Origin: a virus
Taxonomy: Duplodnaviria; Caudoviricetes
Virus record (IMG/VR): IMGVR_UViG_2836862175_000007
Location: 13,538 to 77,537 of that record
Direction: 5' to 3' (one strand)
Length of the DNA stretch: 64,000 nt
Shown: in pieces, positions 45,815 to 60,527 of the stretch
How positions within the stretch are numbered: the stretch's first letter is position 1
Layout of the letters: each line of letters opens with the position of its first letter
Translations under genes and position numbers: made by a program
The notes under the pieces: model-generated
Seen by the model: the letters and a program-made list of their open reading frames with translations, nothing else
Databases searched by the model: none
Told to the model about the DNA's origin: nothing

Positions 45815-45861
45815 GCCCGGCCGATGGCACCGGCGCGGGGAGAGGCGGCGGGTGTTGTGAG

Positions 45862-45990
45862 TGTGGTCCGCTCACTCCGTGAGCGGTCGCCCGGGGCATC
45901 GGGTGGCGTGGAGCGCGGTAACGGGCCGGCACGCCCGCGGAGCCAGTCATATGCGCGGAGCGACCGCTCACGGCGTGAGCGGACCACACT
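45862..45990. repeat. palindromic element GTGGTCCGCTCACTCCGTGAGCGG
   Basis: Inverted arms visible. Confidence 0.8.
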
Positions 45991-46063
45991 CCGAACCAGG
46001 ACGCGCCGCATGAACTTGAAACTACTGAAACCCGGCCGCGGCATGCGGCATCACCGGCGCGCG

Positions 46064-46294
46064 TCAGTCGGCCTTGGTTTCAGCGGCCGGCGACCCGCCC
46101 TCGGTGGCGCGGGAGCGGGACGGCAGCACCACCCAGCGCGAGTCGCCCGGGCTCTCGGGCATGGCCCGGAGGGCCTCGTCGCGGGTGGGGAACCGGCCCT
46201 CGGACAGCCAGCTCTCGCCCGGGCGGCGGGACAGCAGTTCGTAGCTCAGGTCAACGGCCAGCACCGCGTCGATGGCGGCTTGTGAAAGGAACAT
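46064..46294 (-). CDS. small hypothetical protein
   Basis: 76 aa, GGAG RBS. Confidence 0.5.
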   Translation of the reverse strand: MFLSQAAIDAVLAVDLSYELLSRRPGESWLSEGRFPTRDEALRAMPESPGDSRWVVLPSRSRATEGGSPAAETKAD

Positions 46295-46591
46295 GGTTGG
46301 GCTCCGTCGGGGGCGTCTTGCGCTACCAGAAGTTATCGGTGAGCGCTAACGAATGTTGCCCGGAATTCTCCCGACACCGCCGCCGCGAACCGGTGCGCCG
46401 GCCGCACGCGGTGCGGAGGCGTCAGCCTAACGGAACCTCGAACGTGACACCGCCCCCGAACCGGCACGCCAGCAGGGCGTCCGCCCGGCGGCCGGCGCGG
46501 CGCAGACGAATTGCCCCCAGGCTGGGCGCACCCCTGATCGGCGGGTGCGCGTACCGCTGGGGGTTGGTAAGACTCGGTTAACCGGCGGGGC

Positions 46592-46840
46592 TCAGGTGTT
46601 GTCGTAGAACTGCTGGTCAGTAACTCCGTCTTCGGCGGTCAGCTTGAACTTTCGGCGAGCCGCCCGGGCGTAAGCGGTGGGAAGAGTGTCGTGGCTCGTC
46701 GGGACCGGGAAGCTCACCTTGTGACCATCGATGTACTTATAGAACATCGTATGAGAGCCCTTTCCCCGGCCGGTATCCTCAAACACCCCAAAAGCGAACA
46801 AGGCTCGTCTGAGTTGACGCAATGAGAGCGGACGGTCCAC
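46592..46840 (-). CDS. hicA: HicA-family toxin
   Basis: GRGKGSH motif, V.FPVP, 82 aa. Confidence 0.8.
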   Translation of the reverse strand: MDRPLSLRQLRRALFAFGVFEDTGRGKGSHTMFYKYIDGHKVSFPVPTSHDTLPTAYARAARRKFKLTAEDGVTDQQFYDNT

Positions 46841-46855
46841 GGGCGACTCCTCGCA

Positions 46856-47215
46856 TCAGGCCGTCGCGCACTCGGCGTCCTCGTCCTCGTACTCGCGGGC
46901 GCTCACGCCTTCGATCTTGTAGTCCGGCGCCTCGAATTCGATCGCCATTTCGCCGATCGCCACGTCCTTGCCCTTCGCAAACATGACGTAGTATTCGCTC
47001 GGTGCGGGCGTGAAAAGGACGTTCGGCGATTGTTCCTTGACCGCGCTGCTGACCTGAAGTTCGATCGCCTCGCACAACATGTTCATGGCTTCGTGCTTGG
47101 TGTCACCGAAGCCGAGCAGATCGAACTCCAGACAGTGGGCAACAACGACACTGCGGTCGGCCTTGTCACGGTAAAACACAATTCGGAGTGGTGTTCGGGC
47201 GGTAATCTGTTTCAT
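46856..47215 (-). CDS. hicB: HicB-like antitoxin
   Basis: AHCLEFDLLGFGDTKHEAMNMLCEAI. Confidence 0.8.
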   Translation of the reverse strand: MKQITARTPLRIVFYRDKADRSVVVAHCLEFDLLGFGDTKHEAMNMLCEAIELQVSSAVKEQSPNVLFTPAPSEYYVMFAKGKDVAIGEMAIEFEAPDYKIEGVSAREYEDEDAECATA

Positions 47216-47459
47216 CGGCCACCTCCGCCAGCCACGCGTTTCCTCCTGCCTCACGAATCGCGAGGCGCACCGGGCGTTGGGATAACCACGGTGCCGCGAA
47301 AATTGTAGCTGAAAGTCATTCGCACCGCAGTCTTCGCCGCAAAACATTTTTCCGGCGGTCTTCGCGAGCGCGGCATTCTGTTGCTACTACGCACGCATAC
47401 GGTGCCCCGCGCCCGGCACACGCCGCCTCACACACGCACCCGGTAATACCGCCGCTTTC

Positions 47460-47527
47460 TTGACGAGCCGCGACCGCCAGGGAGCGGGAGACGTGGCACC
47501 GCTCCCTGGCGGTCGCGGCTCGTCAAG
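47460..47527. repeat. palindromic REP-like element
   Basis: Third copy of the 5940 family. Confidence 0.85.
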
Positions 47528-47566
47528 AGAGCGACACCGCGGGTGGACTCATGTATCAGGGGCGTG

Positions 47567-48352
47567 TCAGTGCAACGGGACTTCGAAATCGACACCGTCT
47601 CCGAACCGGCACGCCAGCAGGACGCCCACATCCGGGTTGTATTCGGAGGCGCTCGGGTCCGGCTCGCCGGGCGGGGCGTGCGCCGCGCAGCCGGCCCGGT
47701 ACTCGGCCCAGGTGATGCGCCGGGCGGCCGGGTCGCGGGCGAACGCGAAGTAGCCGTCGCGCCCGTGCGCCGGCGGCACCCAACCGACCTCCGGCACCGT
47801 CGTCAGCCGCACGGCGGTGACCGGGTGCCGGGCGCGGATCGCGTCCCCGTGGGCGATCCAGGTCGCGGCGTCGCAGGTGACCGCCGCGATCCAGCCGCCG
47901 CGGGAATCGAGCACACAGTTGTAGGGGTTGATGCCGAGCCCGCGGAGCCAGTCGAAGGTGGGCCAGATCTCGCGCGGGTAGACGGTCATGGTCAGTTGCC
48001 CCTCGCGCCGCCGGAGCGCCTCCAGCCGCTCGGCGTCCGCGGGGGTCGCGTCGCCGCGGCGGTGCCGGTCGTTCAGCGCCGCGAGTTCGCACTGCACGCG
48101 AATGAACTCGGCCCGGCCCGCGCGGCCGTCGGTGAGGCGGCCGGACCCGCCGCACCGGCGGCAGGTGTGCCACGCCCCGGCGGGCCGGAGCGACTGCACG
48201 TCGCGGCCGAACACGCGGCCGGCGTCGCACTCGCCGCAGGTGGCGTCGGCGGCCTGCTCCTGGAGCCAGTCGGCGTACACGAGGCGCGGGGTGTCGTCGG
48301 CGGGCGCGGCGATGATGGCGGCCAGCAGCGCGGCCTCGTCGGGGTCCGTCAT
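47567..48352 (-). CDS. TIGR02996 domain protein with Zn-finger insert
   Basis: ALLAAIIAAPADDTPRLVYADWLQE..RAEFIRVQCELA; CGEC..CRRC. Confidence 0.9.
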   Translation of the reverse strand: MTDPDEAALLAAIIAAPADDTPRLVYADWLQEQAADATCGECDAGRVFGRDVQSLRPAGAWHTCRRCGGSGRLTDGRAGRAEFIRVQCELAALNDRHRRGDATPADAERLEALRRREGQLTMTVYPREIWPTFDWLRGLGINPYNCVLDSRGGWIAAVTCDAATWIAHGDAIRARHPVTAVRLTTVPEVGWVPPAHGRDGYFAFARDPAARRITWAEYRAGCAAHAPPGEPDPSASEYNPDVGVLLACRFGDGVDFEVPLH

Positions 48353-48356
48353 GGTG

Positions 48357-49064
48357 CTACTCGCCCGGGTGCGCTCGCAGGAACGCTTCCACCTCGGGCG
48401 TCGTCGGGATGATCCCGCACGCCTCCAGCATCACCACCTCCCCCGGCGCCTCACGGGAGAGGCGGCACGGCCCCGGCACCACCGCGAAGTCGAACAGCGT
48501 CAGACGACCGCCCTCCCACGAGTAGATCTGACGCGCCTTCCCCAGCACCACTTCCCGCCCGTGGTGACCCCGGTACTCACCGCACACGCAGCCCTGATCC
48601 CGCGAACGCACGATCACATACGTACCGGGTGAAGGCATGGGAAACTCCTCGTGTGTAATGTGGGGCTTGTTTGGGGTTCCGTAGCCGCCGTGGCCGTAGC
48701 CCCCGCCGTTCCCGTAGCCGCGGGCGTAACCGCCTTCCAAGCCGCTACCGGTGCCGGCGATGTCGCAGTAGCCGAAACCGCCGCGGCCTTCACCGCTGCC
48801 GGCGCCGTCGCCGGGGCCGTTGTTGAGGTCGCCGTGGCCGCGGTCATTGTCACCATCGCCGCCGCCGTCACCCGCACCAGCGCCTTCACCGTCACCGGCA
48901 AGGTCGGTCACCCACGGCGGGGCCGTGCCCTCGTCGCGCACCCAGGCGGCTTCGAGGCCGCGGCCGTGCTCGTCGAGCCAGTCCGCATACGCGAGCCGGG
49001 CCGTCACCTCGCCCGGGTAGGCGCCGATGGCGCGAAGCAGCGTGGCTTCGTCGGGGTCGGTCAT
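48357..49064 (-). CDS. TIGR02996-Gly-rich-DUF6948-like protein, copy 5
   Basis: RLAYADWLDE; G/D/Y-rich middle; YVIVRSRDQGCVCG. Confidence 0.85.
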   Translation of the reverse strand: MTDPDEATLLRAIGAYPGEVTARLAYADWLDEHGRGLEAAWVRDEGTAPPWVTDLAGDGEGAGAGDGGGDGDNDRGHGDLNNGPGDGAGSGEGRGGFGYCDIAGTGSGLEGGYARGYGNGGGYGHGGYGTPNKPHITHEEFPMPSPGTYVIVRSRDQGCVCGEYRGHHGREVVLGKARQIYSWEGGRLTLFDFAVVPGPCRLSREAPGEVVMLEACGIIPTTPEVEAFLRAHPGE

Positions 49065-49069
49065 GGGTG

Positions 49070-49873
49070 TCACTCGCCCGGGTGCGCCCGCAGGAACGCC
49101 TCGACCTCGGGCGTGGTCGGGATGATCCCGCACGCCTCCAGCATCACCACCTCCCCGGGCGCCTCACGCGACAGCCGGCACGGACCCGGCACCACCGCGA
49201 AGTCGAACAGCGTCAGCCGACCGCCCTCCCACGAGTAGATCTGGCGCGCCTTCCCCAGCACCACCTCACGGCCGTGGTGCCCCCGGTACTCACCGCACAC
49301 GCAACCCTGATCCCGCGAACGCACGATCACGTACGCACCCGACTCCGGCATGTGAACCTCCTGGTGGGGGATCAGGTGTTGCAGATTGTGCGCGGCGATG
49401 GGGTTGTAGCCGTGGCCTTGACCGTTGCCGTCGCCGTCGCCGTCGCTGTCGCCGTAGCAGTAACCGTAGCCGCGGCCGTAGCCGTGGTTGCCGCCGCGGA
49501 TGCTGTAGTCGTGGATTTCGCTGCCCCCGCCGCCGGCGCCGTAGCCGCGGCCGTCACCGCGGCCGGCGCCGTCGCCGCAGTTCGTACCGTCGCCGTAGCC
49601 GTCGCCGTTGCTGTCACCGTAGCCGTCGCCGTCACCATCGCCGTTACCGCTGCCGTGGTCATCGCCGGTGCCGGTGCCGTCGGCGTCGCAGCCACCGTCA
49701 CCATCGCCGCCGCCGAGTTCGGTCACCCACGGGGCCGTGCCCTCGTCGCGTACCCAGGCGGCTTCGATCCCGCGGCCGTGCTCGTCGAGCCAGTCCGCAT
49801 ACGCGAGCCGCGCGGTGACCTCGCCCGGGTGCGCGGCGATGGCGCGAAGCAGCGCGGCCTCGTCGGTGGTCAT
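49070..49873 (-). CDS. TIGR02996-Gly-rich-DUF6948-like protein, copy 4
   Basis: Same architecture. Confidence 0.85.
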   Translation of the reverse strand: MTTDEAALLRAIAAHPGEVTARLAYADWLDEHGRGIEAAWVRDEGTAPWVTELGGGDGDGGCDADGTGTGDDHGSGNGDGDGDGYGDSNGDGYGDGTNCGDGAGRGDGRGYGAGGGGSEIHDYSIRGGNHGYGRGYGYCYGDSDGDGDGNGQGHGYNPIAAHNLQHLIPHQEVHMPESGAYVIVRSRDQGCVCGEYRGHHGREVVLGKARQIYSWEGGRLTLFDFAVVPGPCRLSREAPGEVVMLEACGIIPTTPEVEAFLRAHPGE

Positions 49874-50046
49874 ACTCGCCCCGATGGTTCCAGGCGCCAC
49901 GTGCCGGCGGCGCGCCGCTCGACGAGCCCGGGATCACGCGCGCGGGCGAGCACCGTCTCGTGTACCAGCGTCGTACCCGTAAATGAGGAGCGATCCGGCA
50001 GCCCAAGACCCTACGATGTGTCCCACGGATCAGTGGTGCAGAGGTG

Positions 50047-51567
50047 CTACGCGCCGGCCGTGGCGCTCGGCCCCGCCGGCGGGCCGCCGGACCCGATGGC
50101 CCCGTGTGACGGCGCGCCCGGGTGGTACCGCAACAGGCCGTCGCCGAACAGCGCGTACAGCACCCCGAGCGGGTTGTTGTACGCCCGGACCATGTGCTGC
50201 CGCGCGGCCAGCAGAGCCGCCCCCACCGGTTCCCCGCCCGCCCCCGGTGCGGCGGGGAGCACCTGCTTCCAGAACTCCTGGCCCAGTTCGAGCCCGAATG
50301 TGATGGGCGCCTCGTGGACGACCGCCACGCACCGCACCCGGTGCCCCCGGACCGGCCCATTGTTGGTGAACTGCCCGAAGACGGTCGTCGGTCCTAACCC
50401 GTCCAGCGGACCGGTCCCGCACCCGTTGAGGAACACCAGCACCGGCTTGCGCTGGTACTTCGGGATCCTCGCCCCGTCCATGTCGGCGGCCGTCAGTTGC
50501 TCCCAGTCCGCGGGGCCGGACCGGGGGGGCCGGAACTCGATCGAGCTGCCGGTCTGCACGTTCGCCCGTGCGACCTCCGCGTGGCCGAAGAACGATACCG
50601 CGTCCGCGTCGACGTGGCGGAGGGCGGCGCGGAAGTCGTCCCGTTGGTCGTGGTGGGTCGTGTCCACCCCAGGCCGCTGGAACGGGTGGCCCCGATCGCG
50701 GTGCCGATCGGCCGGATCGGCCGACGGGCACGTGGCCGCGACGATCCGGGGCGGCCGATTCTCGAACGCCCGCAGGGTCGACTGCCCCTGGGTCCACTTG
50801 AAGGCGGTCTCGAGCTGGTACTTCAGGCCCCAGCACGCCGCCGCCAGCTCGGGCGCGGAGGGCAGTTCGTCGGGGCGCCGGCCGAACAGGTCGGGCGCGG
50901 CGGGCAACTTGTCGGGGTGCCGGTCGAACAGGAGCCGCCACGGGAACGGTTCGGTCCAGTGGTCCGCCGGCGGCGGCAGGTGCGGCCGGTTGACGGGGTC
51001 CGCCCGGTCCTCTTGCGGCACCTTGAACACCACTTTGGGAGAGGCGCTCGCCAGGTACTCGCGGACCAGCGCGTGCGCCTCGGTCTGGTCCCAGTCGGGC
51101 CGCTCCTCGGGCGGGAGGTCGCTCGGCGCCCGCAGGTCCCCGACGAGCCGCTCGAACAGGTTCCGGTACATCTCGTACCCGTGAACCGCGAGCGGGCGCA
51201 AGAACGCGCCCAGCTCCCGGTCCCCGGCCCTCGGCAGGGCCGGATCGTACAGCGCGTACAGCGCCGGGTCGCGGCGGTGGGCGGCCTCCACGTGCGCGTC
51301 CAGTGCCGCGCGGATCAGGTCCCGGAAGGTCGCAAACGAGCCGTCGACGACGCCCTCGAACAGGGCCGTTGGTGGGCTCCCGTCCGAGGTGTCGTACCGG
51401 TGCCGGTCCAGGTACTCGCGGTGCGCCGTCCCGTACGTCGGGTCCAGCGGCACGTTGAGCACCACGTAGGCGCTCGGGGCGCTCGGATCGCGGTAGAACA
51501 GATCCACCCGGAGCGACCGCTCCTGGGGGGGGGGCGACAGAACGGCGGTCGTGGGGGCGCGGAGCAT
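50047..51567 (-). CDS. CHAT-domain (caspase-like) protease
   Basis: FPWRLL, WGLKYQLE, FFGHA (His), VFLNGCGTG (Cys), NPLGVLYALFG. Confidence 0.8.
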   Translation of the reverse strand: MLRAPTTAVLSPPPQERSLRVDLFYRDPSAPSAYVVLNVPLDPTYGTAHREYLDRHRYDTSDGSPPTALFEGVVDGSFATFRDLIRAALDAHVEAAHRRDPALYALYDPALPRAGDRELGAFLRPLAVHGYEMYRNLFERLVGDLRAPSDLPPEERPDWDQTEAHALVREYLASASPKVVFKVPQEDRADPVNRPHLPPPADHWTEPFPWRLLFDRHPDKLPAAPDLFGRRPDELPSAPELAAACWGLKYQLETAFKWTQGQSTLRAFENRPPRIVAATCPSADPADRHRDRGHPFQRPGVDTTHHDQRDDFRAALRHVDADAVSFFGHAEVARANVQTGSSIEFRPPRSGPADWEQLTAADMDGARIPKYQRKPVLVFLNGCGTGPLDGLGPTTVFGQFTNNGPVRGHRVRCVAVVHEAPITFGLELGQEFWKQVLPAAPGAGGEPVGAALLAARQHMVRAYNNPLGVLYALFGDGLLRYHPGAPSHGAIGSGGPPAGPSATAGA

Positions 51568-51633
51568 GACGGTGGCGTGACCGAAAGGGTGGCGGGCGCC
51601 GAGGCCGCGCGTTCGCGGCGCGCGGCGCCGGGC

Positions 51634-53052
51634 TCAGCCGACAGCGGCGGCCGGCTCGACGGTGAAGTATTGGGACGCCGTGTACACGTCGGAGTCGTGC
51701 CGGTCCACGAGGGCCAGGTGCAGGTACTGCCGGCCGGCGGCCCGGGGCCGGAACGTGAACTCGACGGACTGGCCCGGTTGCGGGGGCGTCGAGAGGTACC
51801 GCTCGGCCGGGAGCACCCGGCTGCCGGTCGCGAACACCCGCACCGCCACCACCTCCCCGGGCCCCGCCGGCACCCAGTTGTAGTGGCCGTTGTAGTGATC
51901 TTCCGTGTTCGCCACGTCAGCTTTCGCGACCACCGCCCGCAGGGTCGCTTCGTGCCCCACGGTCAAGGGTCCGCCGTCCCGCGCGCCGATCTCCAGAACC
52001 AGGATGAACTGATCCATTTCGCTTCCCCCGTTGGGGGGCGATGTTCCCTCCGCTTGAGGGGCGAGTTGTTCGCCCAACCCGGTCAACTCGTCCCGCACCT
52101 CGGCCCGCACCCGCCGCAGCGCCTCGAGTGCCGCGGCCCTCTGAGGTGCAAATGACGGCCGGGCGGCCAAGCACTGATCGAGCCAGGCGACCGCCGGGGG
52201 GCTGCGGAACAGCTCGTTCCGGACGTGCTCGCCCCAGATCGTGCGCACGCGCTCCGGCGCCCGTCCGGCGCCGATCCCGTGCAACAGCGGCAGCCACCGC
52301 TCCAGCGCTCGCAGCGCGACCTCCGGGTCCGGTTCCGCGTTCCGAACCGAAGAGCGGACCGGAGCGGCCCCTGGCTCTACACCATTGTTCGGCGGCCGCG
52401 GCACAGAAGGCAAGGGCAACCGGGCGCCCGCGCCGGCCGCCGGCCGCACGAACGGACCCGGCACAGAAGGGGCGGGTTCACTCGCCCACGCCGAATCCGT
52501 CGCCCCCACCGCGACGGCCGCGGGGGTCCTCTGCGCCCGCACGCCCTGGACCGCCTTGAGGATGCCCGCGAGGTCCGCACCCGGCGCCGTGAGCGCCCCG
52601 GCCAGCGCGGCGCCCGGCGCGAGCACCGCGGCGAGGACTTCGCCGATCGCCTCTTGCTTGGTCGGCACCTTGGCGAGCTGCGCCAGGGTCATGGTCTCGC
52701 CGTCGGCGATGCCGACCTTCTCTTTGACCTTCTCGGGCACCTTCAGGTCCGGGCGGATCAGCTTGAGAGCCGCCTCCACCGCGGTCCCGAGGGACTTCGC
52801 GCTGTCGGCCCCCCAGCACAGAAGGGTCGGGCCGGAGCCCGTCTCCACCGTCATGCCGTTCTCGCTGAACACCTTCCGCACGAAGCTGTTCTTGACCATC
52901 TTCACGCGAACCTTCTTCTCGCGAAGGCTCTTGCGAAGCGTGTAGTCGGCCGCGGAGTCCAGCTTCAGCGGCTCCAGCAGCACGAAGTCCCGCACGCCCT
53001 GGAAGGTCTTGCGGAGGCTGTTCAGCTCCAGCTCCTTGATCTTCTTGCTCAT
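51634..53052 (-). CDS. rplJ: ribosomal protein uL10 fused to linker, helical and Ig-like domains
   Basis: LRKSLREKKVRVKMVKNSFVR, GPTLLCWG, LAKVPTKQEAIGEVL..APGAALAG in first ~168 aa; ~300 extra aa. Confidence 0.88.
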   Translation of the reverse strand: MSKKIKELELNSLRKTFQGVRDFVLLEPLKLDSAADYTLRKSLREKKVRVKMVKNSFVRKVFSENGMTVETGSGPTLLCWGADSAKSLGTAVEAALKLIRPDLKVPEKVKEKVGIADGETMTLAQLAKVPTKQEAIGEVLAAVLAPGAALAGALTAPGADLAGILKAVQGVRAQRTPAAVAVGATDSAWASEPAPSVPGPFVRPAAGAGARLPLPSVPRPPNNGVEPGAAPVRSSVRNAEPDPEVALRALERWLPLLHGIGAGRAPERVRTIWGEHVRNELFRSPPAVAWLDQCLAARPSFAPQRAAALEALRRVRAEVRDELTGLGEQLAPQAEGTSPPNGGSEMDQFILVLEIGARDGGPLTVGHEATLRAVVAKADVANTEDHYNGHYNWVPAGPGEVVAVRVFATGSRVLPAERYLSTPPQPGQSVEFTFRPRAAGRQYLHLALVDRHDSDVYTASQYFTVEPAAAVG

Positions 53053-53603
53053 GTTCGGGGTCCTGCCCCCGGGGCGGCCGGGCGCGGCGCGTTCGTGAGG
53101 AGCCGCAAGGAGTCGGACATTTCGCGCGCGATCGCCTCCAGTTCGGCGATCGACCCGGCCGCCTCGATCCGGGGCACGAACCGGGCCGCCAGCAGGCTCA
53201 CGGTGATCCGATCGACCTCCATGCGCCGCAACTGGTTCAGAAGGAAGACCACCAGCGGCGGCGGGCCGACGGTGAACAGGTACGTTAAGTTCGACGGGTC
53301 CTCACTGGTCATGAGGCGCACGGCCGCGAACACGAACCCGACCCCGAGCGCGACCAAGAAGACGAGCAGGACGAACTGGACCCACCACGACACGCTCGAC
53401 CGGAGCCGCTCACCCACCCGCCGGTCCAAGTCGCGGGCCGCGGCGAGGAGCCGGGTGCGGACCTCTTCGATTCCCGCCGCGGCTCGCGCGCGGCTGCCGA
53501 GCGTGATGTCGGGGCCGTGAAGCAGACCTTGCTGCACCTGCTCCGCGGTGGCGATCACCGCACCGAGCTGGAGCGCGCGGGCCGTCGATGAGCGAATGGG
53601 CAT
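53049..53603 (-). CDS. two-TM membrane protein
   Basis: Two hydrophobic helices; ATGA overlap with uL10 fusion. Confidence 0.7.
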   Translation of the reverse strand: MPIRSSTARALQLGAVIATAEQVQQGLLHGPDITLGSRARAAAGIEEVRTRLLAAARDLDRRVGERLRSSVSWWVQFVLLVFLVALGVGFVFAAVRLMTSEDPSNLTYLFTVGPPPLVVFLLNQLRRMEVDRITVSLLAARFVPRIEAAGSIAELEAIAREMSDSLRLLTNAPRPAAPGAGPRT

Positions 53604-53706
53604 TGCGATCACTCCGGACAAGGGCACGGTCGGAGAGGTCGGCTGGAAACCCTTGTGATAGTCGAACTGGCAACCGGCGTCCAGACAGGGTCGGCCGAAT
53701 GCACGC

Positions 53707-54042
53707 TCATACGACCGGCGCGGGGAGCACCGACAGGTACGCCGCGGCGGAGGCCATCTCTTCCCCGCCGACGAGCAGCTCGACGTGTAGGTGCGCCGGC
53801 CCCGCGGCCGAGCAGCACACAAGGAAGGTGGCGTCGGCGGGGAGCCGCACGTCGCGGCCCACCGGCGTCGCCCGCACCCCGGCCCCGAGGACCAGCACCT
53901 CCGCGGGCACCGGGGAACCGAGGTCGCCCCTCACGCGTAACGCGAACGGCACTCCCGCGCGGGCCACGTACCGCCCGTCGGCCGGGCCGGGCAAGTCGAG
54001 TTCCAGCGTGAGCGGCTCGGCAACGCGCGCGGTGTCGGACAT
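53707..54042 (-). CDS. stand-alone Ig-like beta-sandwich protein
   Basis: Pattern (F...AAG..LH..L) resembles the C-terminal domain of the uL10 fusion. Confidence 0.6.
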   Translation of the reverse strand: MSDTARVAEPLTLELDLPGPADGRYVARAGVPFALRVRGDLGSPVPAEVLVLGAGVRATPVGRDVRLPADATFLVCCSAAGPAHLHVELLVGGEEMASAAAYLSVLPAPVV

Positions 54043-54114
54043 TCTGCCCCCGAGCCACGGTTGGGAGTGAACGGCGAACGTACCAAGCGTAGCGCACGCC
54101 ACCCGCGGATGCAG

Positions 54115-54428
54115 TCAGGTTCCGCCGCATAGTAAAATTCGCTCCCGTGTCAAGCCCGCGCGACCGGAGCGCCCGGCGCTCCCGTACCGGCGGCGGGCGG
54201 TTTCCGCCGCAGTGCCACACACCCCTCCCCCTTCGCCCGCGCCAGCGCCTTCACCGTCGCCGGCAAGGTCGGTCACCCGGGGCGGGGCCGTGCCCTCGTC
54301 GCGCACCCAGGCGGCTTCGATCCCGCGGCCTGCTCCTGGAGCCAGTCGGCGTACACGAGGCGCGGGGTGTCGTCGGCGGGCGCGGCGATGATGGCGGCCA
54401 GCAGCGCGGCCTCTTCGGGGTCGGTCAT
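54115..54428 (-). pseudogene. chimeric, frameshifted TIGR02996 remnant
   Basis: 5' end matches 47567-type gene (..DWLQEQA), joined out of frame to array-type GIEAAWVRDEG. Confidence 0.75.
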
Positions 54429-54432
54429 GGTG

Positions 54433-55188
54433 CTACTCCCCTGGGTGCGCCCGCAGGAACGCTTCCACCGCAGCCGTGGTCGGGATGATCCCGCACGCCT
54501 CCAGCATCACCACCTCGCCCGGCGCCTCACGCGACAGCCGGCACGCACCCGGCACCACCGCGAAGTCGAATAGCGTCAGCCGACCGCCCTCCCAGGAGAA
54601 GATCTGACGCGCCTTCCCCAGCACCACCTCGCGCCCGTGGTGGCCCCGGTACTCCCCGCACACGCAACCCTGGTCCCGCGAACGCACAATCACATACGCA
54701 CCCGAAACCGGCATGGGAACTTCCTCGTGGGGGATCAGGTGTTGAAGCTTTCGTGTGGCGATGCGGCCGGCGCGGCCGCCGTCCCCTTCGCCTACGCCGA
54801 TTCCGCGGCCGCCTAAGCCGCTGCCGTAGCCGTGGCCGTCGCCGCGGCCGCTGCTGTAGCCGTGGCCGTAGACGCCGTGGCTGTAGCTGCGACCGCCGTA
54901 GCCGTAGCCGTAGCCGTCCCCGTGGCTGCCGTCGTCGCCGTGACGGTCGTCGTCGTCGCTGTAGTCGCAGCCGTCGCTCTGGCCGTCGCCGTTGCCTTTG
55001 CCCTCGCCGTGGCCGCTGCCACCGAGTTCGGTCACCCGGGGCGGGGCCGTGCCCTCGTCGCGCACCCAGGCGGCTTCGAGGCCGCGGCCGTGCTCGTCGA
55101 GCCAGTCCGCGTACGCGAGCCGCGCCGTGAACTCGCCGGGTGCCGCGCCGATGGCGCGAAGGAGGGCGGCCTCTTCGGGGTCGGTCAT
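54433..55188 (-). CDS. TIGR02996-Gly-rich-DUF6948-like protein, copy 3
   Basis: Same architecture. Confidence 0.85.
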   Translation of the reverse strand: MTDPEEAALLRAIGAAPGEFTARLAYADWLDEHGRGLEAAWVRDEGTAPPRVTELGGSGHGEGKGNGDGQSDGCDYSDDDDRHGDDGSHGDGYGYGYGGRSYSHGVYGHGYSSGRGDGHGYGSGLGGRGIGVGEGDGGRAGRIATRKLQHLIPHEEVPMPVSGAYVIVRSRDQGCVCGEYRGHHGREVVLGKARQIFSWEGGRLTLFDFAVVPGACRLSREAPGEVVMLEACGIIPTTAAVEAFLRAHPGE

Positions 55189-55192
55189 GGGC

Positions 55193-55903
55193 TCACTCGC
55201 CCGGGTGTGCCCGCAGGAACGCCTCGACCTCGGGCGTGGTGGGGATGATCCCGCACGCCTCCAGCATCACCACCTCCCCCGGCGCCTCCCGCGACAGCCG
55301 GCACGCACCCGGCACCACCGCGAAGTCGAACAGCGTCAGCCGACCGCCCTCCCACGAATAAATCTGACGCGCCTTCCCCAGCACCACCTCCCGCCCGTGG
55401 TGACCCCGGTACTCGCCGCACACGCAACCCTGGTCACGCGAACGCACGATCACATACGCACCCGGCAACGGCATGGGAACCTCCTCGTGTGTAATGTGGG
55501 GCTTGTTTGGGGTTCCGTAGCCGCCGTGGCCGTAGCCACCGCCGTTCCCATAGCCGCGGGCGTAACCGCTTTCCAAGCCGCTACCGGTGCCGTCGATGTC
55601 GCAGTAGCCGAAACCGCCGCGGCTTTCACCGCTGCCGGTGCCATCGCCGTGGCCGTTGTTGAGGTCGTCGTTGTGACCCCGGTCGTTGTCACCATCGCCG
55701 CCGCCGTCACCCGCACCAGCGCCTTCACCGTCGCCAGCAAGTTCGGTCACGCCGGGCGGGGGTAAGCCCTCGTCGCGCACCCAGGCGGCTTCGATCCCGC
55801 GCCCGTGCTCGTCGAGCCAGTCCGCATACGCGAGCCGCCCCGTCACATCGCCCGGCACGGCGGCGATGGCGCGGAGCAGCGCGGCTTCGTCGGGGTCGGT
55901 CAT
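55193..55903 (-). CDS. TIGR02996-Gly-rich-DUF6948-like protein, copy 2
   Basis: Same architecture; middle close to copy 5. Confidence 0.85.
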   Translation of the reverse strand: MTDPDEAALLRAIAAVPGDVTGRLAYADWLDEHGRGIEAAWVRDEGLPPPGVTELAGDGEGAGAGDGGGDGDNDRGHNDDLNNGHGDGTGSGESRGGFGYCDIDGTGSGLESGYARGYGNGGGYGHGGYGTPNKPHITHEEVPMPLPGAYVIVRSRDQGCVCGEYRGHHGREVVLGKARQIYSWEGGRLTLFDFAVVPGACRLSREAPGEVVMLEACGIIPTTPEVEAFLRAHPGE

Positions 55904-55908
55904 GGGTG

Positions 55909-56631
55909 TCACTCGCCCGGGTGCGCGCGCAGGAACGCCTCGACCTCGGGCGTCGTCGGGATGATGCCGCACGCCTCCAGCATCACCACCTCGCCCGGCG
56001 CCTCGCGCGACAGCCGGCACGGCCCCGGCACCACCGCGAAGTCGAACAGCGTCAGACGACCGCCCTCCCACGAATAGATCTGACGCGCCTTCCCCAGCAC
56101 CACCTCCCGACCGTGGTGACCCCGGTACTCACCGCACACGCAACCCTGATCCCGCGAACGCACGATCACATACGCACCGGGTGAAGGCATGGAAACTTCC
56201 TCGTGTGTAATGTGGGGCTTGTCTGGGGTTCCGTAGCCGCCGTTGCCGTAGTCGCGGCCGTTGCCGTAGCCAGCACCGTTGCCGCCCCCCCCACCGTAGG
56301 GGCCGAGGCCGCAGCCGTGTCCCTCGCCTTCGCCCTCGCCATCGCCCTCACCGCGGCCGTCGCCCTCACCGCGGCCGTCGCCACCGCCGTGGCCACCGCC
56401 CTCGCCGGCACCGTAGCCGCCGCCCCCACCGTTGCCGGCGTTGTGGCCAGGACCGTCACCCTCGCCAGCAAGGTCGGTCACCCACGGCGGGGCCGTGCCC
56501 TCGTCGCGCACCCAGGCGGCTTCGATGCCGCGGCCGTGCTCGTCGAGCCAGTCCGCATACGCGAGCCGGGCCGTGACGTCGCCGGGCGCGGCGGCGATGG
56601 CGCGAAGGAGGGCGGCTTCTTCCACGGTCAC
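55909..56631 (-). CDS. TIGR02996-Gly-rich-DUF6948-like protein, copy 1
   Basis: Same architecture; GTG start. Confidence 0.85.
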   Translation of the reverse strand: MTVEEAALLRAIAAAPGDVTARLAYADWLDEHGRGIEAAWVRDEGTAPPWVTDLAGEGDGPGHNAGNGGGGGYGAGEGGGHGGGDGRGEGDGRGEGDGEGEGEGHGCGLGPYGGGGGNGAGYGNGRDYGNGGYGTPDKPHITHEEVSMPSPGAYVIVRSRDQGCVCGEYRGHHGREVVLGKARQIYSWEGGRLTLFDFAVVPGPCRLSREAPGEVVMLEACGIIPTTPEVEAFLRAHPGE

Positions 56632-56760
56632 GGCAGTTCCGCTCCAGTCGTTCCGGGTCGGTCCGGCGGCTCGCGTCTTCAAGTGTTCCTGCAAACGTAC
56701 ACGGCGCGTGTGCGCGGTTCCAGGGCGGGCGCGTTCGTTCCCGAGGTGATGCGCCCCCAC

Positions 56761-58296
56761 TTACGCCACCAGTTCCTGCAAGCGGATCACGGCGGTGGCC
56801 AGCGCGTCCGGGCCGTCGTCGTGGTCGCCGTTGGGCCAGTCCCGGAGCTGCTCCACCAGCACCCGACCGCCCGGGGTGCCGCGCACCCGGATCTGACCGC
56901 GGCGCAGGTAGTCGTTCAGCGCCCGGATGCGGATCGCCTTCGGCGCGCTGTTGATCTTCTCCGTGTACACGAACGACAGCACCCGCCCCTGCTCCCGCCG
57001 CTCCCGCAGCACCCGCTCCGCCGCCGGCCGCAGCAGCCCCATCGTGTTGTTCGCCTCCGCCACCAGTTCCACCGGCCGCCACTCCGCCGCGATGTCGATC
57101 GCCCGCTCCACCCAGCCCGGCTCCCGACGCAGCTCCGCGTCCACGTACAGCAGCCCGAACCGCGACAGCCCCAGCTTCACGTGCGCCTGGTAGTCCGCCT
57201 TGTCGCTCACACCCTTCGACGGGTCCAGGCTTTGCAGCCGCACCACCAAATCCGACGGCCAGTCCGTGAACCACAGGTCCGGCCGGTCGAAGCACTCGGG
57301 CGGCCACTCGGCCCCCTCCAGCGTGCCCGGTACGCCCTGGTACTCGCTCTCGAAGGCGCTGCCGCCCACCGCCGCGCGTACCAGCATCAGGTCAACGAGT
57401 GGGAAGCGGTCCGGCCAGTACACCACCCCGCCCCGGTCCATCTCCGCGCGGTGCTCGGCGTAGAACGCCCGCGCCGTCGCCTCCCGCCCGTCGTCCGCCA
57501 TGTTCGAGGCGATCCGCTCGAAATCCGCCCACAAATCGGCCCGTTCCGGCCACGCATGCACCGCCCGGTGGACCCGCCCGGACCACCCCGGGAGCTGCCC
57601 CAGCCGCACCGCCACCGCTTCCCGGTGCAGCGCGCTGCCCACCGCCAGGAAGTTGGTTCGCTCGTTCCCCGCCGGGATCACCTCGCGCGTCGCCCACTCC
57701 CACGCGCGGCGGCGCATGACCGGACTGGTCACGTCCTCGTTGCTCTGAATGTCGTCGAAAATGATCAAACTCGGGCGCTCACTCCGGTTCCGCCGGCCGC
57801 GCACCTTTTTGCCGCTCCCCAGAGCTTCCACCAGCGACCCGTTCCGCAGCCGGATGCGCGACTGCTTCCACTCCGGCCCCGGCCCGGTCGCCTCCGGGTA
57901 CGCCGCGGCCAGCACCTCGTTCTCTTCCAGCTCCTTGCGGATGTGGCGCAGGTGCAGGTCGGCCTGGTCGCTGGAGTCGGACAGGATCAGGGTGTACGGC
58001 TCCCACCCCTCGGCGGCGCACCGGAGCGGGTACGCCAGGGTCTTCCACGTACTTTTGGCCCCGCCCCGGGGGGCGATGTCGGACCGCTTCACCCCGCGGG
58101 TGAGGTGCAGGTTGTGCAGCTCGCGGTCGAACAGGGCGTGGAAGTCCGCGGGCGGGAACCGGCCGAAGTAGTGCGGCAGGAACCGGGCGTTCCACGCGCC
58201 CGGGGTGAGGTCACGGGCGCCCGCCCGTTCCGCCGCCCCCCACAGGCGGCGGAGCGAAGAGGGGCCGCAGGGCAGCGAGCAGTCGGTCGAGTTCAT
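56761..58296 (-). CDS. terL: terminase large subunit
   Basis: APRGGAKST (Walker A), IIFDDIQ, SLDPSKG, HDDGPDA; start uncertain. Confidence 0.92.
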   Translation of the reverse strand: MNSTDCSLPCGPSSLRRLWGAAERAGARDLTPGAWNARFLPHYFGRFPPADFHALFDRELHNLHLTRGVKRSDIAPRGGAKSTWKTLAYPLRCAAEGWEPYTLILSDSSDQADLHLRHIRKELEENEVLAAAYPEATGPGPEWKQSRIRLRNGSLVEALGSGKKVRGRRNRSERPSLIIFDDIQSNEDVTSPVMRRRAWEWATREVIPAGNERTNFLAVGSALHREAVAVRLGQLPGWSGRVHRAVHAWPERADLWADFERIASNMADDGREATARAFYAEHRAEMDRGGVVYWPDRFPLVDLMLVRAAVGGSAFESEYQGVPGTLEGAEWPPECFDRPDLWFTDWPSDLVVRLQSLDPSKGVSDKADYQAHVKLGLSRFGLLYVDAELRREPGWVERAIDIAAEWRPVELVAEANNTMGLLRPAAERVLRERREQGRVLSFVYTEKINSAPKAIRIRALNDYLRRGQIRVRGTPGGRVLVEQLRDWPNGDHDDGPDALATAVIRLQELVA

Positions 58297-58966
58297 CGGC
58301 GGTGATCCCCGACAGGTCGGGCAGGTCCGTGTCTTTGGCCGCGCCGGCGTCCGTGAACATACCCAGGTGCCGGGCCACGGTGACCAGGGCGGCCTGCTGG
58401 TCGTTGAGCCGGGCTTCCACCCCGTCCTTGGTCTGCTTCACCCCGGCCCACAGCGCGCGGGCGCCCGGGGACAGTCGCCGCGTGTCCTTCACGTACACCG
58501 CCCCCACCCCGTCCCCGAAGCACTCGGGGCACTTGGGGGCCGGGGGGCGGCGCGGGTCGTACCCGGGGCCGCCCAGCGGGTCGAACGGCTCGTCGGCCTT
58601 CTTGCCTTCGGCGTGGGCGGCGCGGGCGGCGTCCAGCTCGCTCTGGGTCCAGTGGTAGCGGTGCCCGTCCCCGTGGCAGTACCGGCAGCAGGTGCGGCGG
58701 TGCTCGATGATCTCGTTCGGGTCGGCGGTGGCGATGAGCCACAGCCGCTGGAGCACGGCGTCCGGGGTGAGGGCGGGCCGCTCGGGCGGCTTGGCGCACC
58801 CGGTGGCCGCCGCGATGGCCGCGGCGATCGGCGGCTTCTTCAGGTTCTGCTCGCCGATCTTCCGCGCCGAGTGCGTGCTGTACCCGGCCCGCACCGCCGC
58901 CCCCGACGGGCTCCGGTCCACGAGGTACTCCTGCACGAACCGCTGCTGCCGGGGAGTGAGTTTCAT
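58211..58966 (-). CDS. terS: terminase small subunit with Zn-finger
   Basis: LTPRQQRFVQEYLVD..AAVRAGYS; CRYC..CPECFGDG; HLGMF. Confidence 0.92.
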   Translation of the reverse strand: MKLTPRQQRFVQEYLVDRSPSGAAVRAGYSTHSARKIGEQNLKKPPIAAAIAAATGCAKPPERPALTPDAVLQRLWLIATADPNEIIEHRRTCCRYCHGDGHRYHWTQSELDAARAAHAEGKKADEPFDPLGGPGYDPRRPPAPKCPECFGDGVGAVYVKDTRRLSPGARALWAGVKQTKDGVEARLNDQQAALVTVARHLGMFTDAGAAKDTDLPDLSGITADELDRLLAALRPLFAPPPVGGGGTGGRP

Positions 58967-58994
58967 GCGCGCACCGAAAGAATGACGGGAGCAA

Positions 58995-59575
58995 AGGCAA
59001 CCTACCCCCCGGCCCCAAAGACAACCTACCCCCCGGCCCCCTCCCTGAAGGGAGGGGGTGGCGCCGGGAGGAGTGGTCCCCGTGCGAGAGGCGCGCGCGG
59101 GGCAACCTACCCCCCGGCCCCCTCCCTAAAGGGAAGGGGTGGCGCCGGGAACGCTGGTCCCGGTGCGAGAGGCGCGCGCGGGGCAACCTACCCCCCGGCC
59201 CCCTCCCTAAAGGGAAGGGGAGGAAGACCGCCTTGGTCCCGGTGCGAAAGGAACACGCGGGGGCGACCCACCCCCAACCCCTCCCTGCAGGGAGGGGAGG
59301 AAGGCACGGGCGCACCGATTCCGCCTCGGGTGCCCGGGCGCCTTTGCTCCCCTCCCTGCAGGGAGGGGCCGGGGGTTGGTCTACGCTCGGCGCGCGTGTC
59401 GCGTCGGGACCACTCCTCTCGGCGCCACCCCCTCCCTTTAGGGAGGGGGCCGGGGGGTAGGTTGCCCCGCACGCGCCCCCTCCCGCTCCGGGACCACTCG
59501 TCCCGGCGCCACCCCCTCCCTTCAGGGAGGGGCCGGGGTGGGTTGCCTTTGCTCCCCCTCCCTTCAGGGAGGGCG
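58995..59575. repeat. CCCTCCCT(G/A)AAGGGAGGG palindrome cluster
   Basis: Several tandem and inverted units. Confidence 0.9.
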
Positions 59576-59591
59576 AGTGCCTTTTGCCTTT

Positions 59592-60437: not shown

Positions 60438-60527
60438 ACAACTGCTCCTCCGCCGGTGCGGCGCGCGCAACACGCGCCGCTCATCGGCCAATGGCACCGG
60501 GGCCGCGCCCCGTATCCGCGCTCCGGT

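What the first reader, a model, noticed from the sequence alone, without database searches (positions are those of the whole stretch)
50047..54042. Four-gene cassette: ribosomal protein uL10 fusion plus CHAT caspase-like protease (candidate ribosome-linked conflict system)
Seen: a co-oriented cassette of an Ig-like protein, a two-TM protein, a uL10 fusion (ATGA-coupled to the TM gene) and a CHAT protease with an intact His/Cys dyad. It splits the TIGR02996 array. uL10 looks complete, including the segmented C-terminal helix, but has no rplK, rplA or rplL neighbours. It carries a Pro-rich linker, a helical region and an Ig-like domain resembling the stand-alone one. Known: uL10 binds 23S rRNA, bL12 dimers and its own mRNA leader; CHAT proteases act in bacterial defence and cell-death systems by cleaving neighbouring proteins. 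Inference: uL10 is a decoy that senses ribosome-stalk-targeting factors, a tether to the ribosome, or a dominant-negative translation inhibitor released by cleavage. I know of no described system with this architecture.
Basis: partly seen in the sequence, partly recalled or inferred. Interest (0 to 1): 0.92.

Follow-up and report, generated by a model that had tools for sequence, protein, structure and literature searches.

The report
Ribosomal-protein bait cassette with caspase-like protease

Summary
On the minus strand lie four genes: an Ig-like protein, a 2-TM protein, a uL10-linker-helical-Ig fusion (ATGA-coupled to the TM gene), and a divergent CHAT protease with invariant His329 and Cys383.

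The window is a provirus record. The cassette sits between the portal and terminase genes. A collinear Gemmata algarum prophage (86-96% nt) lacks exactly this 4.4 kb, which 181-bp direct repeats flank in the window.

The host genome G104 has a separate rplKAJL operon. The fused uL10 is sister to the host's own copy (94.6% aa, dN/dS 0.07).

New here: Gemmata genome G127 has the same four-gene architecture on an integrase/primase island, with whole uS17 in place of uL10. Genome G046 has an LRR-TPR-CHAT protein ending in the same Ig-like domain, upstream of the same CHAT subfamily.

So the conserved core is "variable head ... Ig-like domain" plus protease, and the ribosomal protein is a swappable head.

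My best reading (0.42) is a mobile conflict system in which the ribosomal protein acts as sensor or bait. Function is untested, and I found no RNA data, structure or phenotype.

The scan had noted this cassette before on another assembly (e1-2931654, e1-2931655). My five literature searches found no description in print.

The parts
53707..54102 (-). Stand-alone Ig-like (CARDB-like beta-sandwich) protein. 131 aa from the GTG at 54102, or 111 aa from the ATG at 54042.
   Evidence: ORF. No Pfam, NCBIfam, PHROG or PADLOC hit. Homologous to the G127 138-aa protein (E 1e-6) and to the fusion's C-terminal domain (E 0.002). The A7 profile scores 92.6 bits at this place.
53049..53603 (-). Membrane protein of 184 aa from the ATG at 53603 (the ORF runs up to 53822). 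It has a helical N-part, a hydrophobic hairpin (about residues 67-125) and a helical C-part. Its stop overlaps the fusion's start as ATGA.
   Evidence: The G127 counterpart (171 aa) has the same layout, with segments at 73-105 and 102-120, but no detectable sequence similarity. No family hit above cut-off.
52549..53052 (-). uL10 module of the fusion (residues 1-168). It is the whole uL10, including the C-terminal helix region. Only the 15-residue Ala/Glu-rich tail of the 183-aa canonical protein is missing.
   Evidence: PF00466 35.8 bits. NF000955 79.9 bits over 3-164/168. 94.6% aa and 90.7% nt identity to the host's canonical rplJ. Sister to it in the tree with 100/96 support. dS 0.37, dN 0.027.
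52327..52548 (-). Pro/Ala/Arg-rich linker of the fusion (about residues 169-242). Homology to rplJ ends here.
   Evidence: The protein alignment with the canonical uL10 breaks after residue 168, and nt identity falls to 0.40. The modelled part of the linker (residues 225-243) has pLDDT below 50. The rest is judged from composition only.
52063..52326 (-). Helical region of the fusion (about residues 243-330, four predicted helices).
   Evidence: AF2 model with pLDDT 50-70. It aligns with the G127 fusion, for example at a P-E..A.L.AL..LP.L start.
51637..52008 (-). C-terminal Ig-like/CARDB-like beta-sandwich of the fusion (about residues 349-472). This is the constant domain shared by all partner proteins of this CHAT subfamily.
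   Evidence: 30% identity to the G127 fusion (E 5e-9). AF2 pLDDT is 80-92 in most 10-residue blocks, dipping to 48-67 at module residues 151-180. Foldseek matches CARDB 3idu with TM 0.59 by target, and C3 MG and MSP domains. The Atlas structure search gives CARDB-type rows. The same domain ends the G046 LRR-TPR-CHAT protein (65 bits).
50047..51567 (-). Divergent CHAT (caspase-like) protease of 506 aa. The collection's gene call is 486 aa. Dyad His329 (codon 50581-50583) and Cys383 (codon 50419-50421).
   Evidence: 33% identity (E 1e-56) to the G127 protein, which hits PF12770 at 44.6 bits. 3 of 5 subfamily members hit CHAT. H329 and C383 are invariant. The AF2 model was unusable (pLDDT 37.8).
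49691..49871 (.). Left copy of the 181-bp direct repeat that flanks the cassette. It is the 5' part of a TIGR02996 gene.
   Evidence: 81% identical to 54241-54422. The G. algarum prophage has one copy here and lacks 49872-54269.
54241..54422 (.). Right copy of the flanking direct repeat. It is a truncated 5' remnant of a TIGR02996 gene.
   Evidence: The remnant ORF 54115-54306 reads the family's 'RDEGTAPP..DLAGDGEGAGAG' segment.

Best explanation
This is a mobile four-gene conflict cassette, most likely anti-phage or inter-element defence.

Its conserved core is a partner protein that ends in a particular Ig-like domain, followed by a CHAT-subfamily protease. The head of the partner protein is exchangeable. 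In two Gemmata mobile elements the head is a near-complete ribosomal protein recently copied from the resident lineage: uL10 here and uS17 in G127.

I read the ribosomal protein as the sensing end, or bait. Something happens to it, such as binding, modification or cutting by an invader's factor that targets the ribosome, or failure to be taken up on rRNA when host ribosome synthesis is shut off. That event is passed through the helical-Ig module to the protease. The protease then cuts its targets, perhaps the 2-TM protein, the stand-alone Ig-like protein or the linker, and stops growth or infection.

Shown: the gene architecture, the homologies, mobility, the host origin of the heads, and selective constraint on them. 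Inferred: the defence role, the sensor role, the protease targets, and any contact between the parts.
For: 1. The same four-gene order (Ig-like, 2-TM, head-linker-helical-Ig, CHAT) occurs in G104 and G127. The heads are uL10 and uS17. Pfam S17 scores 88.1 bits over the full 68 of 68 positions.

2. Each head is closest to its own genome's gene.
- uL10 is sister to the host's canonical copy (100/96 support) at 94.6% aa identity.
- The uS17 head is 86.4% nt identical to G127's own rpsQ, against 79.2% to G104's.
- So the two heads were captured independently.

3. Both heads are constrained. dN/dS is 0.07 for uL10 and 0.375 for uS17. In both, only the low-complexity C-terminal tail is replaced.

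4. In G046 the same Ig-like domain (65 bits) ends an LRR-TPR-CHAT protein directly upstream of the same CHAT subfamily. A classical ligand-sensing repeat therefore sits where the ribosomal proteins sit.

5. The contexts are mobile and accessory.
- Here the cassette lies between portal and TerL/TerS in a provirus.
- It is missing as a clean 4.4-kb indel, with 181-bp flanking repeats, from a collinear G. algarum prophage whose TerL is 100% identical.
- In G127 it lies beside a tyrosine integrase, a Toprim protein and a 485-aa protein whose P-loop I read by eye.

6. The protease dyad is invariant in 5 of 5 members.

7. Caspase-like proteases are established effectors of bacterial immunity. One is reported to cleave EF-Tu and RplE (preprint 10.1101/2024.10.24.620036, passages read).
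Against: - There is no functional datum of any kind.
- PADLOC finds nothing in 4 of 4 proteins.
- The cassette is very rare. The CHAT profile matched 2 of 29 Gemmata genomes strongly, plus one weak match, and 9 of 252 family genomes at E <= 1e-6, of which only three were strong. It matched 0 of 401 phylum genomes, though only 3 candidates per genome were scored there. It matched nothing in viral or metagenome contigs, phages or plasmids.
- All amino-acid change since the duplication lies on the fusion's branch (0.064 against 0), and some is at sites that are otherwise conserved (L99I: canonical L in 15 of 15). For uS17, dN/dS is 0.375 against 0.106 between canonical copies. A bait that must mimic its model exactly would be expected to drift less.
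- No phage factor that attacks uL10 or uS17 is known to me (recalled, not searched).
- The two TM proteins share no detectable sequence.
- The branch-wise counts of synonymous changes are unreliable, because GC3 differs (0.95 against 0.79).
Confidence: 0.42

Rival explanations
1. Ribosome tether. The ribosomal-protein head serves to place the partner protein on ribosomes or rRNA. Through its Ig-like domain this also places the CHAT protease there. The protease then acts locally on translation factors, nascent chains or ribosomal proteins.
For: Both heads are complete rRNA-binding proteins under purifying selection. In the uL10 part, residues 130-168 differ from the canonical protein at only four conservative positions (140, 155, 160, 168). 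I recall this region as the bL12-binding helix. A bacterial caspase-like protease is reported to cleave EF-Tu and RplE (passages read).
Against: uL10 and uS17 sit on different subunits, far apart (textbook knowledge, recalled), so no single local target is implied. The equivalent position holds LRR-TPR-CHAT in G046, which fits a sensor better than an anchor. A bulky 300-residue tail on uS17 may not be tolerated in 30S assembly (inference).
Confidence: 0.22
2. Element-serving takeover of translation. The prophage or island uses the chimeric ribosomal protein to alter host ribosomes for its own benefit, as proposed for other virus-encoded ribosomal proteins. The protease processes or regulates the chimera.
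For: The gene lies in a provirus between packaging genes. Virus-encoded ribosomal proteins under purifying selection are documented (Mizuno et al. 2019, PMC6375957; abstract and passages read).
Against: That paper stresses small, exchangeable proteins (bS21, bL12, bL9, bL31, bL33). Its main text mentions uL10 only as context and uS17 not at all; I could not see its supplementary tables. The cassette is dispensable for a near-identical prophage. The same core pair occurs with an LRR-TPR-CHAT head in G046, with no phage or mobile-element gene seen in the 16 kb fetched.
Confidence: 0.12
3. Chance chimera. A recombination accident joined a duplicated rplJ fragment to an unrelated gene, and the product has no role of its own.
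For: The uL10 fusion is known from one species genome only. It lies in a recombination-prone paralogue array flanked by repeats. Amino-acid change is faster on the fusion branch.
Against: A second, independent fusion of another ribosomal protein lies at the same position of the same cassette. Both frames are intact with dN/dS below 1. The ATGA coupling is kept. Both junctions fall exactly before the disordered tails.
Confidence: 0.06

Closest known systems
CHAT/caspase-like proteases of prokaryotic immune systems, such as the caspase-like effector of type IV Thoeris (preprint 10.1101/2024.10.24.620036, passages read). The Csx29 TPR-CHAT protease of type III-E CRISPR is recalled, not read.
   Same: A Cys/His caspase-fold protease encoded next to partner genes on mobile or accessory DNA. 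The translation apparatus is among the known targets of such proteases (EF-Tu and RplE).
   Different: There is no TIR, CRISPR, SAVED or STAND partner here. The PADLOC models do not match. The partner is a ribosomal-protein-Ig fusion, with an Ig-like protein and a 2-TM protein alongside. Activation and targets are unknown.
'System 4' of Kaur, Burroughs, Iyer and Aravind 2020 (eLife, PMC7159879, section 33 read): the membrane protein EACC1 plus a caspase carrying about 50 alternative C-terminal domains, one of them an EF-Tu domain.
   Same: A small membrane protein gene is paired with a caspase-superfamily protease and a highly variable domain slot, which can hold a part of the translation apparatus.
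   Different: EACC1 has one TM helix, and there the variable domains are fused to the caspase itself. Here the variable head is on a separate protein, joined to the system by an Ig-like domain. The membrane protein has a two-segment hairpin. The passages I searched in that paper mention ribosomal protein S1-like and L12/ClpS domains but not uL10 or uS17. I did not test homology of the TM protein to EACC1.
Virus-encoded ribosomal proteins (Mizuno et al. 2019, Nat Commun, PMC6375957; abstract and passages read).
   Same: A ribosomal protein gene of host origin, carried by a (pro)virus and under purifying selection.
   Different: The proteins described there are mostly free-standing and exchangeable. 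This one is uL10 fused to a 300-residue adaptor inside a protease cassette. The same slot holds uS17 on a non-phage island.
Integrated decoys of plant NLR immune receptors (recalled, no paper read).
   Same: As a concept: a copy of a host target protein is built into an immune protein as bait and swapped between receptors.
   Different: There is no NLR or STAND module here, no evidence yet that the head is attacked by anything, and the kingdom differs. This is an analogy only.
The second type of ribosomal-protein fusion in Gemmataceae (earlier scan note e1-5204565): a helical protein with a whole ribosomal protein as its C-terminal tail, preceded by a protein of unknown family.
   Same: Whole, host-like uS17 is fused into an accessory two-gene module in Gemmataceae. 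I saw three such cases (G097 twice, G102).
   Different: The ribosomal protein is at the C-terminus, the partner families are different, and there is no CHAT and no Ig-like domain. The A7 Ig profile found nothing in G097.

Membership tests
Ribosomal protein uL10 (Pfam PF00466; NCBIfam NF000955) | Match to the family profile over its full length | tested here: met
   PF00466 scores 35.8 bits against a cut-off of 22.8. NF000955 scores 79.9 bits over 3-164/168, just under its equivalog cut-off of 85. Identity to the host's own uL10 is 94.6% over 168 residues.
Ribosomal protein uL10 (functional housekeeping rplJ) | Location in the rplKAJL-rpoBC operon, normal length, and being the genome's stalk-base protein | tested here: not met
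   The gene lies in a provirus with no rplK, rplA or rplL nearby. It is 472 aa against the 183 aa of the canonical protein. The canonical operon is elsewhere in G104. It is a paralogous chimera, not the housekeeping gene.
CHAT domain (Pfam PF12770), caspase-like fold | Profile match | tested here: inconclusive
   The window's protein gives 0 hits. Its homologue in G127 scores 44.6 bits, and 3 of 5 subfamily members match. The window protein aligns to the G127 one over residues 13-481 at E 1e-56.
CHAT domain (Pfam PF12770), caspase-like fold | Catalytic His and Cys in the conserved motifs | tested here: met
   FFGHA (H329) and FLN[GA]C (C383) are invariant in 5 of 5 members. That these are the catalytic pair is inferred from motif position (recalled), not from a structure.
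CHAT domain (Pfam PF12770), caspase-like fold | Caspase/hemoglobinase fold by structure | tested here: inconclusive
   The AF2 model has mean pLDDT 37.8 and was not searched. The PDB sequence and profile searches were empty.
Known anti-phage defence systems (PADLOC-DB v2) | Any component matching a model of a described system | tested here: not met
   0 families for 4 of 4 cassette proteins at E <= 1.
Kaur et al. 2020 'System 4' (EACC1 + caspase) | 5' gene with a single conserved TM helix (EACC1), and a caspase carrying the variable domain itself | tested here: not met
   The membrane protein here has a two-segment hydrophobic hairpin. The variable head is on a separate protein. This compares with the paper's description only. 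No EACC1 profile was available.
Virus-encoded ribosomal proteins (Mizuno et al. 2019) | Ribosomal protein gene inside a viral genome, of host origin and under purifying selection | tested here: met
   The window is a provirus record with terminase and portal flanks. The uL10 part is sister to the host gene with dN/dS 0.07. However, it is fused and sits in a cassette that a sister prophage lacks.
Ig-like/CARDB-like beta-sandwich | Fold similarity of a confident model | tested here: met
   Across the domain, 10-residue-block pLDDT is mostly 79-92, with two blocks at 48-67. Foldseek matches 3idu CARDB at E 5.5e-5 with TM 0.59 by target. There is no Pfam hit above cut-off.

The most novel reading that the evidence does not exclude
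Mobile elements of Gemmata carry a bacterial counterpart of the plant 'integrated decoy'. Whole host ribosomal proteins (uL10, uS17) are captured by recombination as interchangeable baits on an Ig-domain adaptor. An attack on the ribosome, or a halt of ribosome assembly, is then reported to a caspase-like protease that triggers membrane-linked growth arrest.
Probability: 0.22. Interest if true: 0.92.

Novelty: new variant of a known kind. Interest (0 to 1): 0.8.

Why it matters
If the ribosomal-protein heads are baits, this would be the first bacterial system shown to guard the ribosome by displaying copies of its proteins. It would also be a natural example of modular bait exchange, and it would imply unknown phage factors that attack uL10 or uS17.

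If the heads are anchors, it would be a protease delivered to the ribosome.

Either way it links caspase-like proteases, which are central to cell death in animals and to immunity in bacteria, with the translation machine. It also gives a defined test: wild type against C383A, and head swaps.

The finding further shows that Gemmataceae repeatedly recruit whole ribosomal proteins into accessory modules. At least two unrelated module types were seen here.

Tried and rejected
- **Direct family searches.** Pfam, NCBIfam, PHROGs and PADLOC searches of the CHAT-like, TM and Ig-like proteins gave nothing above cut-off. PDB sequence searches with the CHAT protein and with the A3 profile were empty.
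- **CHAT structure.** The AF2 model built from the five-sequence alignment was unusable (pLDDT 37.8), so no fold search was made with it.
- **Collection scans.** Scans with the fusion and with the CHAT alignment found only canonical rplJ loci in genome contigs. They found nothing in viral contigs or metagenome contigs. tblastn of the CHAT protein against phages and plasmids found nothing.
- **Phylum sample.** It gave 0 of 401 genomes, but only 3 candidates per genome were scored, so this is weak evidence.
- **C-terminal module profile.** Against 1.84 billion representatives it gave 6 weak hits, all in the Ig part. Neither the window's nor G127's own protein appeared among them, so the library seems not to hold them.
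- **Ig profile, longer proteins.** This search gave only P0010, P0011, the window's protein and P0014. None of the others has a recognised head. P0013, with a receiver-domain head, came and was scanned.
- **G094 locus.** I considered it (GAF-kinase, Pkinase, 168-aa protein, CHAT) as a kinase-headed variant. I rejected it because the Ig profile does not match its proteins (E 0.7-0.9) and its CHAT matches only positions 319-443 of the profile.
- **Branch-wise substitution counts.** The result was fusion 9 synonymous and 7 non-synonymous, canonical 23 and 0, with 6 ambiguous. I do not rely on the synonymous part because GC3 differs.
- **RNA and regulatory signals.** Rfam found no L10 leader or other family above gathering score in 46000-58500. 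The promoter and terminator scan gave nothing usable.
- **Sequencing runs.** No RNA holder was listed among the runs. The raw-read run X9 laid no reads and is no test.
- **Literature.** Five searches found no paper that describes a uL10 or uS17 fusion with a CHAT protease. Supplementary tables of Mizuno et al. and Kaur et al. were not visible and could hold relevant rows.
- **Rows dropped.** For the tree I left out L006, L003 and L004, as duplicates of L002, L028 and L034.

Full report
**1. What is there**

The window is part of an IMG/VR provirus record of 77.5 kb (CheckV estimate 87). GC is about 72%.

On the minus strand, between the portal gene and the terminase genes, lies an accessory stretch.
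- The portal gene is at 43016-45814 (phrog_21, 361 bits).
- TerL is at 56761-58296 (phrog_38, 260 bits), and TerS is at 58211-58966.
- The stretch holds several TIGR02996 + DUF6948 paralogues. Two of them carry both domains, and a third has TIGR02996 without a DUF6948 hit. The one I scanned against PHROGs matches phrog_18306 at 430 bits.
- It also holds a lower-GC gene pair at 46592-47347.
- The four genes of the finding complete it.

The four genes are as follows.
- An Ig-like protein, 53707-54102.
- A membrane protein, most likely 53049-53603 (184 aa), with a hydrophobic hairpin.
- A 472-aa fusion, 51634-53052, whose ATG overlaps the membrane gene's TGA.
- A 506-aa protein, 50047-51567.

**2. 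The fusion**

Residues 1-168 are uL10.
- Pfam PF00466 scores 35.8 bits against a cut-off of 22.8.
- NCBIfam NF000955 scores 79.9 bits over positions 3-164 of 168, just under its equivalog cut-off of 85.

The unnamed host genome is G104, a 9.0-Mb single contig of the genus Gemmata. It holds the fusion at 1.42 Mb and a normal rplK-rplA-rplJ-rplL operon at 6.46 Mb.

Comparison of the fused copy with the host's 183-aa uL10 gives these figures.
- Identity is 94.6% at protein level and 90.7% at DNA level over 168 codons.
- Homology stops exactly before the 15-residue Ala/Glu-rich tail.
- In a tree of 33 uL10 rows the fused copy is sister to the host's own gene (support 100/96). All amino-acid change lies on the fusion's branch (0.064 against 0).
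- Pairwise dS is 0.37, dN is 0.027 and dN/dS is 0.07.

After the uL10 part the fusion continues in three pieces.
- A Pro/Ala/Arg-rich linker.
- Four predicted helices (pLDDT 50-70).
- A beta-sandwich whose 10-residue-block pLDDT is mostly 79-92, with two blocks at 48-67. It resembles CARDB, complement MG and MSP domains. The Atlas structure search agrees.

Unitig contigs of three sequencing runs run unbroken from 50000 to 52675. That crosses the junction at about 52548. The contigs break only inside the part shared with rplJ, where depth roughly doubles. These runs may be the source of the assembly, so this is consistency, not independent proof.

**3. The protease**

The window's 506-aa protein hits no family model directly. 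The evidence that it is a CHAT protease is indirect.
- It is 33% identical (E 1e-56, residues 13-481) to a G127 protein that scores 44.6 bits on Pfam CHAT.
- With three 411-aa relatives from the protein collection it forms a subfamily.
- In that subfamily FFGHA (His329) and FLNxC (Cys383) are invariant.
- Three of 5 members hit CHAT.
- The structure model failed.

**4. The key new result: the head is swappable**

Gemmata genome G127 carries the same gene order on the same strand: a 138-aa Ig-like protein, a 171-aa two-segment membrane protein, a 464-aa fusion, and the CHAT protein.

The G127 fusion begins with a complete uS17 (PF00366, 88.1 bits, 68 of 68 positions). It then continues with a Pro-rich linker, helices, and an Ig-like domain homologous to the window's (E 5e-9). 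The stand-alone Ig-like proteins are also homologous (E 1e-6). The membrane proteins are similar only in layout.

G127 has its own canonical rpsQ.
- The fused copy is 86.4% nt identical to it, against 79.2% to G104's rpsQ.
- dN/dS is 0.375, against 0.106 between the two canonical genes.
- Here too the junction falls just before the tail.

So two different ribosomal proteins were each copied from the resident lineage into the same slot.

The G127 cassette lies beside a tyrosine integrase, a Toprim protein, an HTH protein, and a 485-aa protein whose P-loop I read by eye, with no family hit. That context looks like a small integrative element.

**5. The constant core**

A profile of the Ig-like domain finds it twice in G104, twice in G127 and once in G046.

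In G046 it forms the C-terminus (residues 772-903, 65 bits) of a 917-aa LRR-TPR-CHAT protein. That protein lies directly upstream of a 423-aa member of the same CHAT subfamily (E 6e-72).

In all three loci with full context, a protein ending in this Ig-like domain therefore precedes this protease, and its head varies: uL10, uS17, or LRR-TPR-CHAT.

Other proteins with the domain have a receiver domain (P0013) or unrecognised heads (P0010, P0011, P0014). I could not see their neighbours.

**6. Mobility and rarity**

G. algarum contig C146 is collinear with window 44373-60906 at 86-96% nt identity, and its TerL is 100% identical. It lacks window 49872-54269, which is the whole cassette.

In the window the cassette is flanked by 181-bp direct repeats (81% identical) made from the 5' parts of TIGR02996 genes. 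It is therefore cargo that was gained, or lost, by recombination within the paralogue array.

The cassette is rare.
- The fusion's tail matched nothing in 101 family genomes.
- The CHAT profile matched 2 of 29 Gemmata genomes strongly.
- It matched 9 of 252 Gemmataceae genomes at E <= 1e-6, three of them strongly.
- It matched 0 of 401 in a thin phylum sample.
- It matched nothing in the viral, metagenome, phage or plasmid collections.

**7. A wider pattern**

A Pfam S17 survey found a match in 233 of 252 Gemmataceae genomes. Beyond G127, four more long-frame S17 copies turned up.
- Three (G097 twice, G102) are helical proteins with a whole uS17 as C-terminal tail. Each follows a 258-300-aa protein; the one I scanned has no family hit.
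- One (G111) has an unknown N-terminal part.

This agrees with the earlier scan note e1-5204565. Gemmataceae thus recruit whole ribosomal proteins into at least two unrelated accessory modules.

**8. How it most likely works**

Shown:
- the architecture and the homologies;
- the host origin of the heads and the constraint on them;
- the intact protease dyad;
- the mobile, dispensable context.

Inferred:
- The Ig-like domain couples a variable head to the protease.
- The head is the specificity part, because the slot can hold LRR repeats (classical ligand sensors) or whole ribosomal proteins.
- With a ribosomal protein as head, the system would report an event at the ribosome. That event could be an invader factor that binds, modifies or cuts the protein (decoy), or a failure of the copy to be assembled on rRNA when host synthesis is shut down.
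- The 2-TM protein is the best candidate for a membrane effector, and the free Ig-like protein for a competitor or regulator. These last two points are guesses.

I give the sensor or bait reading 0.42. The rivals are a ribosome tether (0.22), element-serving manipulation of translation (0.12) and a functionless chimera (0.06).

**9. Comparison with what is known**

Caspase-like proteases are established bacterial immune effectors. One is reported to cleave EF-Tu and RplE (preprint 10.1101/2024.10.24.620036, passages read).

Kaur et al. 2020 describe a membrane protein plus a caspase with many alternative fused domains, one of them an EF-Tu domain. They also describe L12/ClpS insertions in other systems (PMC7159879, section 33 and passages read). 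In what I read they describe no uL10 or uS17 heads, no Ig-domain adaptor, and not this gene order.

Mizuno et al. 2019 list virus-encoded ribosomal proteins. In their main text uL10 appears only as context and uS17 not at all. I did not see the supplements.

None of my five literature searches found this architecture.

The scan itself reported the uL10 cassette earlier, from another assembly, as known from one strain only (e1-2931654, e1-2931655). The uS17 twin, the G046 core pair and the clean indel are additions made here.

**10. Verdict**

The cassette is a real, intact and mobile unit. It is a new variant of the CHAT-protease conflict systems, with an unprecedented and exchangeable ribosomal-protein head. 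Function is untested. Interest 0.8.

Noticed in passing
window 46592-47347 (-): Two small genes (82 aa and 163 aa) lie in a dip of GC (0.61 against about 0.72). By recalled motifs ('GKGSHTMFY') they look like a HicA/HicB-type toxin-antitoxin pair. Pfam gave no hit at E <= 0.001. The stretch is 95.7% identical in the G. algarum prophage.
   Followed up: partly
window 47567-56760 (-): An array of TIGR02996 + Gly/Asp-rich + DUF6948 paralogues lies between the portal and terminase genes. The one scanned matches phrog_18306 at 430 bits. The same array, with a different copy structure, is in the G. algarum prophage. TIGR02996-LRR proteins also sit next to the other type of uS17 fusion in G097.
   Followed up: partly
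window 47449-47537: A strongly structured element with sub-threshold Rfam matches on both strands (MIR1846 at 45 bits against a gathering score of 77.5; DUF3800-IV at 33 bits). It lies between the HicB-like gene and the first TIGR02996 gene.
   Followed up: no
L058 5075-7066, L059 4966-6879, L061 5590-7610: A second module type: a protein of 258-300 aa (the one scanned, 285 aa, has no Pfam hit; the other two were not scanned), followed by a helical protein of about 372 aa whose C-terminal tail is a whole uS17 (Pfam 85-93 bits in the two scanned). It occurs twice in G097 and once in G102.
   Followed up: partly
L060 5179-6003 (-): In G111 a 274-aa protein has an unknown N-terminal half and a complete C-terminal uS17 (82 bits). 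By eye it lies beside PrkA/YeaH-like genes.
   Followed up: no
L056 7-4774 (+): In G094 a GAF-kinase-like protein, a Pkinase protein of 570 aa and a 168-aa protein precede a CHAT protein of 434 aa that is distantly related to this subfamily. The Ig profile does not match these proteins.
   Followed up: partly
window 32348-34840 (+): A bacteriophytochrome histidine kinase (PAS_2-GAF-PHY-HisKA-HATPase) lies inside the record classed as a provirus. Either the provirus call overreaches into host DNA or this gene is cargo.
   Followed up: no
P0002, P0003: Two metagenomic 'long uL10' proteins appear to be artefacts of gene calling. P0002 reads as rplJ running out of frame into rplL. P0003 is uL10 joined to a prepilin peptidase on a 1.1-kb contig. 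Neither is a true fusion relative.
   Followed up: partly
L057 1251-2753 (+): In G053 a CHAT domain fused to an nSTAND1 NTPase lies at a contig end. It is a weak relative of the subfamily.
   Followed up: no
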